A DNA stretch of 64,000 nt. Origin: Octopus vulgaris. Its lineage: Eukaryota. The stretch covers positions 139,252,001 to 139,316,000 of the forward strand of contig OX597817.1 of the NCBI GenBank assembly GCA_951406725.2. The letters run 5' to 3'. A program made the translations under genes and the position numbers. Below, in pieces: positions 5,475-27,824 of the stretch (position 1 is the stretch's first letter; every line of letters begins with the position of its first letter). Below the pieces are notes generated by a model. It searched no databases. It was not told where the DNA came from and was given only the letters and a program-made list of their open reading frames with translations.

Positions 5475-5812
5475 CTATGAATGTGCAAGACTTTGTCTTC
5501 TCTTATCATTATCTTCAGGAAGTTCGAGGTGGTGAGCTCTTTGTGCAAGCAATTCTAGTTTCTTTAGAAGCAATCCTTTAGTCAAAAGCGGCTTTTCACG
5601 TCTCTTTGCAATGTCAAGAGAGAAAGGTGAACCTCTTTTGCCGAGACCGACATCGAAATATATTTCATCACTTGAAAAATCAGGTAACGTTTTCTGCGGC
5701 GGTTCCTTGTAGAGAAAAGGTAAATCGATGATGTTCCACGGGATGTATGACCAAGGGTGGATTTTCTTGTAAAGGTTAGCCACTTCATCTCTCATTGCTG
5801 GATAGTAGTCTA
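5475..5812 (-). CDS. Terminal coding exon of the same precursor (133 aa if directly spliced): (I)DYYPAMRDEVANLYKKIHPWSYIPWNIIDLPFLYKEPPQKTLPDFSSDEIYFDVGLGKRGSPFSLDIAKRREKPLLTKGLLLKKLELLAQRAHHLELPEDNDKRRQSLAHS*
   Basis: Non-repetitive ORF preceded by acceptor TCTATTTTTTATTTGCAG| (AG at 5814-5813), phase 1; contains GKR, two KRR and two KK sites; AATAAA downstream on the minus strand at 5447-5442 and 5322-5317. Confidence 0.8.
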
Positions 5813-5879
5813 CTGCAAATAAAAAATAGATACCATTTAAAACTTCAGTGGAATTTAAAGAGGTGCAATGGAAGAATGC

Positions 5880-6170
5880 GAAGAGTCTAAGTGCTTGAAG
5901 ATGAGCTCAGTGGAACATTTGCAGATGGAAACGATGAGGGAACTGCAATTGTTGACTTTCTGGTCTGGGATGGAGGGAGCCGAAGAAAATCGTCAAGCAA
6001 TGGATGGTGGGGGAAAGCAAGAGTTAGGTTTAAGAAGAAGGTGATGTTGAGAGTTTTAATGTATGGGAAGAAGTCAAATAAATGTCGGTTGATTTGGTGG
6101 AAAGGATTGTGGATTAGGTGGGGGTGAAAGTGGAAGAGAAAGGAGACGTGTGGGGGTAAATGTCAGTATC
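5880..6170 (-). mobile_element. Possible degenerate Penelope-like RT N-terminal fragment
   Basis: Minus translation ...KVNNCSSLIVSICKCSTELIFKHLDS resembles the PLE motif K.N.PGRPIVS.C.CPTE.IS..LD. Confidence 0.35.
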
Positions 6171-6273
6171 TGCATGAGGTGTGCAGCTAAATACTACTAC
6201 TACTACTACTACTACTACTACTACTACTACTACTACACACTCACACACACACACATATATATATATATATATA

Positions 6274-8082
6274 ACTTCTCTTCCTCCCACCCAGAACACA
6301 CCAAGCTTTCCATCCCCTATTCCCAATTCCTCCGTCTACGTAGGCTCTGTAGTGACGACCATGACTTTGAGACTCAGTCTCAACGTATGGCTCACCACTT
6401 CACCCTACGTGGATACCCCCTCACCACTATCCACACCGCCCTTGCCAGAGCACGGTCCGTGGACCGTGTATCTGCTCTCTCTCCCCGAACCCGCCCTGTA
6501 GTCTCCCGCCTCCCTTTTCCCCTCACTTACCACCCCACGACCCTACGTCTCCAACGCACCATTCTTCGAGCTTTCCGTCATCTCCAGTCCGACCCGTCCA
6601 CTTCACACCTCTTCCCTAACCGACCCCTCCCCTCTTTCAAACGAGCCCACAACCTTCGAGACCTTTTGGTCCATAGCTCCTTCCCTGACCCTACCTCCCA
6701 ACCCGGCTCGTTCCCCTGCTCCCGCCCACGTTGCCGCACTTGCCCTTACCTCTCCAACACCACCCGCCTCACTAGCACCCACCATCGACCCTATCCCATC
6801 ATCCACTCCTTCACCTGCACCTCCAGCAATATTATCTATTGCATCTCTTGCTCTCTCTGCAATTCCTTGTACATCGGACAAACGGGACGCCGCTTGGCTG
6901 ACCGGTTCGCGGAACACCTTCGTGACATCCACCTTGCGAACGACACACCGGTCTCACGCCATTTCCGCTCCACCGGTCACTCCTTGCAACACCTATCTGT
7001 GTTCGGTTTGTCCTTACACAGAGGCCATCCGGATTCCCGTTTGCGCCGTGAACAGGAATTAATCTTCTCTCTTCGCTCTTATACGCCATTTGGTCTCAAC
7101 TCTCCCCCCTCCTCATCTAACCCCCTCCCCCTCCTCACCTATCCTTTCTCCCCCGACCCCTACTTCTTCAGTCCTTCATCCTTTCACCCCTACTCCCCTT
7201 CCCTTCTTCCCTCTTTCTCCCTCCCTCTTCCCCTTCCCTCTGCTCCCTCACTCCCTCTCTCCCCTTCTCTCTCCCCCTCTCCCTCTTTCCTCCTTCATCC
7301 CCCTCATCCCCTTCCTTCTCCCCCATCCTCTCCTCTCCCCCTTCCCCTCCCCCTCTTCTCCCCCCTTCTCCCCCCTTCTCCCCCTCCCCTCCCCCTCTTC
7401 TCCTCACTACACCACATGACTTTACACATCACATCACATATGATGTGCCATACTAATACACACACCAACTAATACATACTAATACGTACTAATACATACT
7501 AGTACATACTAATACTTACACCAACCCTATACATACACACGTCCAGACCCCGCATACGCACTTATACTCTCTCACACACACACACACACACCTATACATA
7601 CCAATACGTACTAATACATACTAATACATACTAATACATACACCAACCCCATACATACGCACGCCCAGACCAATCTTACGCACTAATACTCTCTCATACA
7701 CACACACACCCTTATACATACTAATACATACACCAACCCTATACATACACACATCCAGACCCCTCCCACGCACTTTTAGCTGGTCCCTCAACCCTTTTAT
7801 CAACCCTATTATCTCCCCTTATTTCGCTCTCGCGTCTCATGTTTGATCTTTGACCTCTGGCCGAAATCAGATCGCCATGTTGATTCGTTAGCTACTGCAC
7901 GCATTTTTTTCTCTCCTTCTTTCTGTGTTTTTCTCTCTCTGTGTATCTTTCTGTTGAAGAGCGTAGGCTCGAAACGTTAAAGACTTGTTTTATTTATATT
8001 TCCTGAGCGCCATACTAATACAATTGTTCGTTTGTTTTCCACCTGCCTTCGTCTTTTGTTTATTTTCATAAAGCTTCCCGTT
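6274..8082 (+). mobile_element. 5'-truncated Penelope-like element (Neptune-type): RT C-terminus, Cys-linker, GIY-YIG endonuclease, pLTR with hammerhead
   Basis: SSSHPEHTKLSIPYSQFLRLRRLCS; CSRPRCRTC; NIIYCISCSLCNSLYIGQTGRRLADRFAEH; flanked by (TA)n on both sides. Confidence 0.9.
7947..7982 (+). ncRNA. Minimal type I hammerhead ribozyme motif (PLE pLTR family 1)
   Basis: cttt-CTGTTGA-a-gagc gtag gctc-GAAAC-gtta-aag; palindromic ACGT stem III. Confidence 0.6.
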
Positions 8083-8599
8083 ATATATATATATATATAT
8101 ATATATATACACACACACACACACGTGTGTGTGGGTGTGGGTCTATTCGTCGTCTCCACTCACAATTCTTGGGAGGTTCGTGAGGGGTAGAATCTGCAGG
8201 CATCTCCTCCTCTTTAGGGTCCCATCAGAAACACCAGTCATTAGACTTTCCAGGTGGAATCCCATGAGTGAGCAACGGATTCCATGGGTCTTAGGGTCCC
8301 TTGCTGGTTAGCTCGGCTCAAAAAATCCATCGTTCTTGCGACACGCACATCACATGTCTGTAGCACCCTCAATACGTAGTGGCCTCTCAATACGAAGAAG
8401 TAGTGGATCGACCTGGAGAGTCTCCATCACCTCCGAGTTACGCACCTACTTCACTAACGTTACTTCAGAGACACTAAGGAAGACCCCCTATTCGAACGCT
8501 TGTATCCGCGATCATATATACACATGCATACATACAGAATCGTATGTATGTATGTATGTATGTATGTATGTATGTATGTATGTATGTATGTATATATGA

Positions 8600-26288: not shown

Positions 26289-26893
26289 CAGGAACGTCGC
26301 CAAGCCCCTGCAACTCCTGCGGTTGTAGGGGGCCTCCGCGGTTCAGGGGTCTCATATTAAGATCAAAGTACGTAGATGAGTCATCTATTTACTTTGGTTA
26401 AAATGTTAAACAAGAATTCAACTTTGTTAACTGAAAATTTCAAGAAATAAAATAGTGATACATAGTACCTGCAAAAGTTCTTCGAAAAACAATTAAATTG
26501 TACCACGAAAGTGTACCAGACTTTGTGAATTGTCTATGATACCCATTGAACACGAACTTAGCTCTCAGCTTCATTGTTCTGAACTGATCGATGATTTCAC
26601 AAAGCGAAAAGAGCGCCGTGTTTGTCTTTGAAAGTTGCTTGAATTACAAAAATGCTTTCTTATTCATGTCTGGAAGTTTTACTTATTGAAATTTGTAATA
26701 GACCTAAATAAATTTAACTTGATGCACTTTTAAAGATGTTCTTTAGGATAACGTGAAATATTGAACTTCGGACAGAATAAAGTAAAATATATTTATGAAT
26801 AAAAGGTGCTTAGATTATGAATTTTGATTGAAGGGGTAGGGCCCTCGAAACAAAAAGTTGCAGGGGGCCTCTAAAAGTTAAACGGCGGAACTG
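26289..26893 (+). mobile_element. Internally deleted hAT (Tip100/ZMYM1-like) element
   Basis: CAG...CTG termini, 8-bp TSD ATGATGTG/ACGATGTG, C-terminal remnant LSMIPIEHELSSQLHCSELIDDFTKRKERRVCL*. Confidence 0.8.
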
Positions 26894-27077
26894 ACGATGT
26901 GTTAAAAGATATCAAGTTAGAGTTTTGAGTTTCTCACAGGAATAAAAATGTAGCCTTTATGCTTGAAGTAGATCGTGTGTAGGGTCAAGATGTATGGTGT
27001 ACAGGGCGAATAAACCCTAACTTCGAAGTCGCTGTCGACCCTTTTCTTTGGTACACACACGCGCGCGCTTATGTATG

Positions 27078-27255
27078 TAGGGAGAGTTTACGAAAAAAAC
27101 AAAAGACGAAGACAGGTGGTATACAAAACAAACAGATGTATTAGTATAACGCTCAGGAATAGAGAAAGTCTTTTACGTTTCGAGCCTACGCTCTTCTACA
27201 GAAAGGGACACAGAAAAAACAGGGAGAGAAACAAGGAGAGAAAAAAAGGAGAGAA
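27078..27255 (-). mobile_element. PLE pLTR family 1 copy with hammerhead (27170-27205)
   Basis: rc cttt-CTGTAGA-agagcgtaggctc-GAAACGTA-aaag. Confidence 0.75.
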
Positions 27256-27760
27256 AAGTATGTATGTATGTATGTATGTATGTGTGACGGGTTTTAATCA
27301 GATTCAGTCTACCAAATTCCATTCACAGAATATTGGTCAGTTCGATATTATGATGTCAGATCGTGCAATAAGATCGAACTTGGAATTATGAGGGGGGGGG
27401 GGGTTACCACGCAGCTACACATGTGCTAAACGGATAAAAATTAACAACTATCTAAAGTTGAAGTATTTAGACATGGAAGAAAGTAAACCTAACCCTCTGC
27501 CATCACAATATTAACCACTTGATATAGCTTTCTACGTAATAGTTGTGAGTTCAAATCAGGCCTCCGCCAGCATTGCTTTTTGCTATCTTGAATACGATAT
27601 ATTTACAACATAAATATTTAAGAAATAGGAAACCTTTTAATATAGTTTCCGAGCCCCCACATCTCTCTCCCTTTCTCTCTCACAAAGCTAAGGGCTTATC
27701 CGCGTCTTCGTGGAGATTAACCAAATAATTCAACAAGATTAAAATAAAACTTCCACTTAC

Positions 27761-27824
27761 TTTTATTACACTGGGTAGAACTGAGAATGGTTAGTGAGAC
27801 CAAGGTAAATAGTAAACGCATCAT
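27761..27824 (-). CDS. First coding exon (signal peptide) of a putative neuropeptide/prohormone precursor: MMRLLFTLVSLTILSSTQCNK + 1 nt
   Basis: Minus strand reads gacATGATG CGT TTA CTA TTT ACC TTG GTC TCA CTA ACC ATT CTC AGT TCT ACC CAG TGT AAT AAA A|GTAAGT: basic N-terminus, hydrophobic core, T-Q-C (-3/-1) cleavage motif, consensus donor at 27760-27755, phase 1, matching the acceptor at 5812. Confidence 0.8.

What the first reader, a model, noticed from the sequence alone, without database searches (positions are those of the whole stretch)
5475..27824. Hidden two-coding-exon secreted prepropeptide gene spanning a 22-kb TE-filled intron (candidate novel neuropeptide precursor)
Seen: a 64-nt exon at 27824-27761, too short for the ORF track, encodes a typical signal peptide (MMRLLFTLVSLTILSSTQC|NK) and ends in phase 1 at GTAAGT. 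The only non-repeat, non-TE ORF in the window begins after a strong acceptor in phase 1 at 5812. Joining A+TA gives Ile and an uninterrupted 133-aa protein with KK, GKR and two KRR sites and no cysteines in the mature part. Established: signal peptide, dibasic convertase sites and Gly-Lys-Arg amidation signals define neuropeptide precursors. Inference: I do not recognise it as a described molluscan precursor, so it may be a lineage-specific or unannotated peptide system. Extra internal exons cannot be excluded.
Basis: partly seen in the sequence, partly recalled or inferred. Interest (0 to 1): 0.9.

Follow-up and report, generated by a model that had tools for sequence, protein, structure and literature searches.

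The report
Octopus-restricted candidate peptide hormone precursor
A real, spliced two-exon octopus gene, already in public databases as an 'uncharacterized protein', encodes a short protein that is likely secreted and cut into signalling peptides, and these match no named neuropeptide family in the searches made.

Summary
The gene model is right. Exon 27824-27761 joined to exon 5812-5475 gives a 133-aa protein identical to RefSeq XP_029634700.1 (LOC115210315, Octopus sinensis, 'uncharacterized'). Contigs from 3 of 4 public runs laid (3 studies) leave position 5812 straight into the end of exon 1, so the 21,948-nt splice is shown. The gene is therefore not hidden or unannotated; only its function is unassigned. 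The fourth run uses another exon ending at 15126, which cannot carry the signal peptide in frame. Relatives were found only in Octopus (92-99% identical), with all basic sites kept; the gene is single copy. Best reading: a prepropeptide predicted to release a peptide ending in YFDVGL-amide plus smaller fragments, of no assignable family. It is not the octopus buccalin/allatostatin-A gene: a separate nine-copy L-amide precursor lies on contig C5, although a weak in-register likeness to it exists (p 0.008-0.07). Pfam CRF and galanin models do not match. Tissue, processing and receptor are untested; a venom or other gland product is not excluded. Interest 0.4.

The parts
27761..27824 (-). Coding exon 1 (64 nt): Met1-Lys21, predicted signal peptide (likely cut after residue 19), phase-1 donor GTAAGT at 27760
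   Evidence: spliced to 5812 in contigs of X1, X2, X4; hydropathy peak 2.3. SignalP not available.
27825..27973 (-). 5' untranslated region, minimum extent if the contigs are colinear here (X2 and X4 carry 213 letters upstream of 5812; X1 carries 523, which would reach 28283); in-frame stop at 27905
   Evidence: lengths; positions inferred; only 30 letters of each loose end were seen
5813..27760 (-). Intron, 21,948 nt, GT..AG; at least 38% repetitive; holds non-LTR retroelement fragments
15126..15161 (-). 3' end of an alternative exon (donor GTGCGG at 15125) spliced to 5812 in run X6; 5' end unknown; gives no open frame with exon 1
   Evidence: 0 of 32 AG acceptors tested give an open exon1+cassette+exon2 frame; the first long frame starts at Met28, 106 aa
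5475..5812 (-). Coding exon 2 (338 nt): residues 22-133 and stop. The acceptor is a CAG-TAG tandem; the RNA-type contigs use the CAG (5812), the O. vulgaris database model uses the TAG 3 nt downstream (132 aa)
5643..5762 (-). Predicted main peptide, residues 39-78 (40 aa, net charge -4), between KK (5768-5763) and the amidation/cleavage signal; would end in YFDVGL-amide; may be shortened at Lys57 or Lys62
   Evidence: sequence; processing inferred from established convertase/PAM rules
5634..5642 (-). Gly-Lys-Arg (79-81): predicted amide donor and convertase site
   Evidence: kept in all 4 database sequences
5496..5633 (-). C-terminal part: 9-aa peptide (82-90), KRR (5606-5598), 31-aa segment (94-124, internal KK, predicted helix 100-115), KRR (5504-5496)
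   Evidence: low-confidence model
5052..5474 (-). 3' untranslated region covered by RNA-type contigs (ends between 5189 and 5052); AATAAA at 5447 and 5322

Best explanation
This is a spliced two-coding-exon Octopus gene whose 133-residue product is likely a secreted prepropeptide, predicted to be cut at its basic sites into a C-terminally amidated peptide (ending YFDVGL-amide) and smaller fragments that would act as neuropeptide or hormone signals, and it belongs to no family that could be assigned here. Shown: exons, splice, protein sequence, single copy, conservation of all basic sites in three Octopus species. Inferred: signal cleavage near residue 19, entry into dense-core vesicles, cutting by prohormone convertases at KK37, KR80, KRR91 and KRR125, trimming by carboxypeptidase, amidation of Leu78 from Gly79 by PAM, release from neurons or neuroendocrine cells, and action on a GPCR. 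The isoform through the 15126 exon would lack the signal peptide and is likely non-productive.
For: Splice in 3 of 4 runs, 3 studies, 2 organism labels. Identical RefSeq protein and orthologues at 99, 92 and 95%; the 10 differences to O. bimaculoides spare every basic site after the signal, and Cys19>Ser keeps a small residue at the likely -1 position. Gly+dibasic together with three KR pairs arose in 0.38% of 20,000 shuffles of the mature part. Of the 10 Atlas rows shown for the whole protein, 8 are named peptide-hormone precursor clusters (galanin, CAPA, PBAN, DH31-type, PDF, FMRFamide, allatostatin, tachykinin; 0.88-0.91). No folded domain detected: no Pfam family, no PDB match. No relative outside Octopus in 5.8 billion clustered proteins or 1.84 billion representatives; none of 12 short motifs of it found this precursor in the De Oliveira 2019 supplements, nor 6 motifs in the Thiel 2021 supplement.
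Against: No tissue of expression, no peptide detected, no receptor. A Gly+dibasic motif alone arises in 10.4% of shuffles. The three species are too close for conservation to single out a mature peptide (6 differences in 112 residues, spread out). Atlas scores of 0.9 are reached by 4-10% of shuffled proteins and the families disagree. The 40-residue acidic, proline-rich stretch before the amide has no dibasic site close to it, so the real N-terminus is unclear. De Oliveira 2019 found no lineage-specific expansion of peptide families in cephalopods, though it warns that divergent families could be missed. The AlphaFold model (pLDDT 39, 4 near-identical sequences) is uninformative rather than proof of disorder.
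Confidence: 0.5

Rival explanations
1. It is a diverged offshoot of the buccalin/allatostatin-A (galanin-receptor-related) system: a degenerate three-unit remnant of an L-amide precursor, or a single-copy galanin-like precursor, whose L-amide peptide acts on the octopus buccalin receptor or GALR-like receptor.
For: Residues 77-102 align without gaps to three successive units of the octopus L-amide precursor on C5 (12 of 26 identical); shuffles that keep GLGKR reach that score in 0.76% (P0001) and 3.4% (P0003) of 5,000. A nemertean L-amide precursor in the De Oliveira supplement has a copy ending MMYDVGL-GKK and a phoronid one has many YxVGL-GKR copies. Top Atlas hit is a galanin precursor cluster, 0.91. 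O. bimaculoides has both a buccalin receptor and a GALR-like receptor (PMC8514136).
Against: The canonical multi-copy precursor exists elsewhere (L035, 9 xLGK[KR] copies). With all basic sites also fixed, p rises to 0.019 and 0.074, and the comparison partner was picked through the shared motif. Only one amidation signal; no MDP-type start; signal peptide on its own exon, whereas in L035 it is in one open frame with the peptides. Pfam Galanin and Allatostatin do not match; 160 shared Atlas features is below the 170 typical of true family members.
Confidence: 0.15
2. It is a processed exocrine peptide precursor (salivary/venom gland, reproductive gland or skin), with the same convertase and amidation chemistry but aimed outside the body.
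For: Octopus venom glands make short, lineage-restricted precursors with dibasic sites; 27 superfamilies have no known function and many lack homologues outside cephalopods (bioRxiv 10.64898/2026.02.02.703354, section 4 and passages). No homologue outside Octopus fits this too.
Against: Single copy with no tandem paralogue within 200 kb on either side, whereas the SF1 venom precursors lie in tandem arrays; no tachykinin- or neurotensin-type ending; 92% identity across species with conservative changes is not the fast divergence often seen in toxins (own knowledge). Found in 14 RNA-type runs from 7 studies, tissues unknown.
Confidence: 0.2
3. The C-terminal part (residues 82-124) is a highly diverged CRH/DH44/egg-laying-hormone-like or other class-B GPCR ligand, the family reported lost in cephalopods.
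For: Length (43 aa) and a predicted helix at 100-115; a resemblance to CRH recalled from memory; ELH/DH44 was not found in cephalopods (PMC6425005; PMC8398477) while one CRHR-like gene is reported for molluscs (PMC7200681); Atlas search of 60-133 lists glucagon/secretin-type clusters at 0.84.
Against: Pfam CRF does not match the protein or in-frame fragments and the genome search with PF00473 does not list this locus; no PDB hormone matches at E<=10; an internal KRR would cut the segment after 9 residues; no C-terminal amidation signal; 0.84 is within chance.
Confidence: 0.05
4. It is a small secreted, largely unstructured protein that works intact; the basic pairs are incidental.
For: 19 of the 113 residues after position 20 are Lys or Arg, and Gly+dibasic arises in 10.4% of shuffles. 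Other octopus-specific secreted proteins without peptide anatomy exist (obimac0019980, bioRxiv 10.1101/2022.06.11.495763).
Against: The full pattern has p about 0.004; all sites are kept in O. bimaculoides; Atlas neighbours are mostly prohormones.
Confidence: 0.1

Closest known systems
LOC115210315 / XP_029634700.1 (O. sinensis), CAI9721878.1 (O. vulgaris), LOC106869042 / XP_014770036.1 (O. bimaculoides)
   Same: Same gene: 100%, 99% and 92% identical.
   Different: All are named uncharacterized or hypothetical. The O. vulgaris model uses the acceptor 3 nt downstream; a 106-aa UniRef model lacks exon 1.
Buccalin / allatostatin-A precursors (mollusc L-amides)
   Same: Predicted G-L-amide ending from GLGKR; weak in-register likeness over 26 residues to the octopus precursor on C5.
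   Different: One amidated copy instead of 7-29; no MDP-type start or F-G-x-L core; intron after the signal peptide; the canonical gene is elsewhere.
Vertebrate preprogalanin (PF01296 + PF06540)
   Same: Top Atlas neighbour (0.91). Layout recalled as similar: signal, short spacer, basic pair, one long peptide closed by GKR, long C-terminal associated peptide.
   Different: No HMM or PDB sequence match; 160 of 256 shared features, below the usual level for members; the other Atlas neighbours name other families.
CRH / DH44 / egg-laying hormone family (PF00473)
   Same: A 43-residue, partly helical segment after GKR.
   Different: No profile match, internal KRR, no amide donor at its end.
Octopus venom superfamily SF1 (tachykinin/octotensin precursors)
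   Same: Short octopod-restricted precursor with dibasic sites.
   Different: No RRPYIL or tachykinin-type ending, single copy, and the neighbours seen are a TMEM62-like gene and retroelements rather than the reported flanking genes (partial scan).

Membership tests
Neuropeptide/peptide-hormone precursor (general) | N-terminal signal peptide on the real transcript | tested here: met
   Hydrophobic 19-residue start spliced to exon 2 in 3 of 4 runs; judged by hydropathy, SignalP not available
Neuropeptide/peptide-hormone precursor (general) | Di/tribasic convertase sites and Gly amide donor, conserved in orthologues | tested here: met
   KK37, GKR79, KRR91, KK105, KRR125 in all three species; pattern p about 0.004; the species are close, so conservation is weak evidence
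Neuropeptide/peptide-hormone precursor (general) | Expressed in neurons or neuroendocrine cells | not testable with these tools
   Run tissues are coded; LOC115210315 absent from the 3 searchable supplement files of PMC9712504
Neuropeptide/peptide-hormone precursor (general) | Mature peptides detected and active on a receptor | not testable with these tools
   Needs peptidomics and receptor assays
Buccalin / allatostatin-A | C-terminal L-amide (FGL-amide in insects; L- or I-amide in molluscs) | tested here: inconclusive
   Predicted VGL-amide meets the loose mollusc rule of PMC8514136, not FGL-amide; like single copies in nemertean/phoronid precursors
Buccalin / allatostatin-A | Long precursor with many similar amidated copies | tested here: not met
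   One GKR only; the nine-copy precursor is at G000:C5
Buccalin / allatostatin-A | Activates AstA/buccalin receptor | not testable with these tools
   Receptor XP_014776263.1 listed for O. bimaculoides
Galanin/spexin | Match to the galanin N-terminal profile (PF01296) or GMAP | tested here: not met
   HMMER filters drop matches weaker than about E 0.1
Galanin/spexin | Single peptide closed by GKR with a long C-terminal associated peptide | tested here: inconclusive
   Layout fits and Atlas top hit 0.91 with 160 of 256 features; the reference layout is recalled, not fetched
CRH/DH44/ELH | Match to PF00473 and an amidated 36-46-residue peptide | tested here: not met
   no amide donor after residue 124
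DH31/calcitonin | Two-cysteine ring (calcitonin) or DH31 profile match | tested here: not met
   No Cys after residue 19; no Pfam match; Atlas DH31-type row 0.90/0.80 is a lead only
Octopus venom SF1 | Tachykinin/octotensin/myosuppressin-like peptide; tandem array | tested here: not met
   Sequence lacks RRPYIL; single copy
Cephalopod salivary-gland superfamilies of unknown function | High expression in salivary glands; listed in File S1 of the venom preprint | not testable with these tools

The most novel reading that the evidence does not exclude
The gene encodes the ligand of the GALR-like receptor that, among molluscs, only cephalopods keep: a single-copy, galanin-style precursor whose L-amide peptide arose from or converged on the buccalin/allatostatin-A motif, giving octopuses a peptide system missed by all homology-based surveys.
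Probability: 0.08. Interest if true: 0.8.

Novelty: new member of a known kind. Interest (0 to 1): 0.4.

Why it matters
Homology-based surveys concluded that cephalopod brain complexity came without new neuropeptide families, while admitting that divergent ones could be missed (PMC6425005, passages). A processed, octopus-restricted precursor would be a concrete exception and supplies a short list of peptides to test on orphan octopus GPCRs, including the GALR-like receptor. If it proves to be a gland product it is an undescribed exocrine peptide. The gene itself is already annotated, so the gain is a functional hypothesis, not a gene discovery.

Tried and rejected
No RNA holder is listed as such among the runs (14 holders are guessed RNA); tissue and level could not be read. 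Homology: exon-2 and profile searches found only the Octopus cluster, nothing among longer proteins (weak evidence), and only itself among 1.84 billion representatives; shorter proteins were not searched. Pfam: nothing for the protein or fragments (one of the six queries, 5640-5770, was out of frame and counts for nothing). PDB by sequence: 0. AlphaFold: pLDDT 39, so no fold search was run. Genome searches with CRF (3 matches, all under the cut-off, none here) and Galanin (0). Tandem GGLGKR pattern: 0; tandem GLGKR-type pattern: 6 matches against 10 in the control. The idea that this is the 'missing' coleoid buccalin was rejected when a three-unit pattern found the canonical precursor. No paralogue in 400 kb of flanks (best flank E 2.4). 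No tRNA gene. Earlier scan notes: nothing. Not in print as far as searched: accession and motif searches gave 0 papers; topic searches gave no paper naming it in what I read. Not seen and possibly relevant: the Sepia neuropeptidome (Zatylny-Gaudin 2016, reference listing only), bioRxiv supplements (venom File S1; Fig. S1 of 10.1101/2023.11.27.568875), cut parts of De Oliveira files 2-3, and a scanned file of PMC9712504.
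Full report
Observation. The sequence is as described. On the minus strand an ATG at 27824 opens 64 nt that end in phase 1 before GTAAGT. A pyrimidine-rich CAG acceptor precedes 5812, and the frame runs to a stop at 5475. The intron is 21,948 nt, GT..AG. Joined, the exons give 133 aa with the only Cys at 19 and basic sites KK37, GKR79, KRR91, KK105 and KRR125. 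By sequence alone exon 1 was not unique: a loose filter found 22 candidates at 11 donors, most in microsatellites.

The splice is real. Twenty of 24 listed runs hold the exon-2 region, 14 of them guessed to be RNA (none is on record as RNA). I laid 4 runs from 4 studies on 4700-6150. In X1, X2 and X4 the contig stops at 5812 and goes on with 30 letters that match 27761-27790 exactly, once in the window. A contig that skips 21.9 kb at canonical splice sites most likely comes from spliced RNA; exon 2 is single copy in the genome. In X6 the contig goes instead into a stretch matching 15161-15132 with one mismatch, the end of an exon with a GTGCGG donor at 15125. None of 32 AG acceptors tested gives an open frame from exon 1 through this exon; the first long frame starts at Met28. 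Its 5' end was not seen.

The gene is annotated. The joined protein is identical to P0001, RefSeq XP_029634700.1/XP_036358553.1, LOC115210315 of Octopus sinensis, 'uncharacterized'. The cluster has 4 members: O. vulgaris CAI9721878.1 (132 aa; explained by the TAG acceptor 3 nt downstream, whereas the three contigs use the CAG), O. bimaculoides XP_014770036.1 (92%) and a 106-aa model without exon 1. The 10 differences to O. bimaculoides spare all basic sites after the signal peptide. In the laid runs the only coding difference listed is one synonymous change at 5775, against several in the 3' UTR (too few to test).

Range. Nothing outside Octopus was found: 1 protein among 7 candidates, 1 among 8,000 scored with the profile at E<=10, none among longer proteins, and only itself among 1.84 billion representatives. 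Peptide precursors diverge fast, so this bounds detection, not age. No Pfam or PDB match. No paralogue in 200 kb on either side. Of 656 complex ORFs there, 102 were scanned; the non-retroelement hits were a single-exon TMEM62-like frame about 60 kb downstream of the stop, a kinase exon about 190 kb beyond the window end, a weak APEH-like match and two weak DUF matches.

How it likely works. Signal peptide, dibasic sites and Gly-Lys-Arg are the established marks of a prohormone-convertase/PAM substrate (own knowledge). Gly+dibasic alone occurs in 10.4% of shuffles; with three KR pairs, in 0.38%. Eight of 10 Atlas rows for the whole protein are named peptide-hormone precursor clusters, from different families, at 0.88-0.91, a level that 4-10% of shuffled proteins reach. 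The predicted products are 20-36, 39-78-amide (perhaps shortened at a single Lys), 82-90, 94-124 and 128-133. The amidated peptide is the best candidate for the active signal. All of this processing is inferred. The AlphaFold model is too poor to use.

Family tests. Buccalin/allatostatin-A: Li et al. 2021 (PMC8514136; passages, sections 18 and 34, supplement passages) found a buccalin receptor but no precursor in O. bimaculoides and Sepia pharaonis, and GALR-like receptors only in cephalopods among molluscs. That suggested this gene as the missing precursor, as did YxVGL-GK[KR] copies in nemertean and phoronid precursors (PMC6425005 supplement). But a three-unit pattern search found a canonical precursor with 9 xLGK[KR] copies at G000:C5 (1 coding hit among 54 matches, the rest appear to be tandem repeats). 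This gene is therefore not the buccalin orthologue. It does align to that precursor over 26 residues without gaps (12 identical). Shuffles that keep GLGKR reach the score in 0.76% (P0001) and 3.4% (P0003) of 5,000, and 1.9% and 7.4% with all basic sites fixed: suggestive of a degenerate offshoot, not proof. Galanin: top Atlas hit and a similar layout (recalled), but no profile match and fewer shared features than true members usually have. CRH/DH44/ELH, reported lost in cephalopods (PMC6425005 passages; PMC8398477 passages): no profile match, internal KRR, no amide donor. Venom SF1 (bioRxiv 10.64898/2026.02.02.703354, passages and section 4): motifs and tandem array absent, but membership of one of the 27 unknown salivary superfamilies could not be checked because the supplement is closed.

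Literature. Accession and motif searches returned 0 papers. The gene id is not in the 3 searchable supplement files of PMC9712504 (passages read). Motifs did not find this precursor in the supplements of PMC6425005 (two files cut) or PMC8557429. Passages only were read of 10.1101/2022.06.11.495763, 10.64898/2026.02.18.706622, PMC4489612, 10.1101/2023.11.27.568875 and PMC7200681. The Sepia neuropeptidome paper was not seen and could hold a related peptide.

Verdict. It is an annotated gene of unknown function, a new member of a well-known kind of molecule, with a modest chance of being the ligand of an orphan cephalopod receptor. Interest 0.4.

Noticed in passing
L035:1129-1848 (+) = G000:C5 near 119,377,400: Open frame with a signal-like start and 9 xLGK[KR] copies (MDPxMFGxL-amide type), by resemblance the octopus buccalin/allatostatin-A precursor; PMC8514136 lists this precursor as not identified in O. 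bimaculoides and Sepia pharaonis. No Pfam match.
   Followed up: partly
window 5812-5810: Tandem CAG-TAG acceptor: RNA-type contigs use the CAG (133 aa), the O. vulgaris database model uses the TAG (132 aa, ID replaced by N).
   Followed up: yes
window 15126-15161 (-): Alternative or poison exon spliced to exon 2 in 1 of 4 runs; it ends in a four-codon frame whose stop is formed by the first three bases of exon 2.
   Followed up: partly
window 27973 and 28283: Contigs of X2 and X4 (different studies and organism labels) both carry exactly 213 letters upstream of 5812, which if colinear ends at 27973 right after an AG; this may be a start site, a further 3' splice site or an assembly break. Upstream ATGs lie at 28256 and 28079.
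   Followed up: no
window 6093-7472 (+): 459-aa open frame on the opposite strand at the 3' end of the intron that looks like the tail of a Penelope-type retroelement with a GIY-YIG-like nuclease (recalled; Pfam gave no match).
   Followed up: no
window 12471-14418 (+), 30310-30834 (+), 59868-60701 (+), 46901-47401 (+): Retroelement fragments: zf-RVT (two, under cut-off), RVT_1 (two) and a zinc knuckle.
   Followed up: partly
L043:1786-3960 (-): 725-aa uninterrupted frame with metallophosphoesterase, TMEM62 Ig-like and TMEM62 C-terminal domains, the nearest recognised cellular gene downstream; its lack of introns was not examined.
   Followed up: no
L038: The 10 kb just below the window hold an LTR-type retroelement (protease, RT, RNase H, integrase matches) and a LINE-type element.
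   Followed up: no
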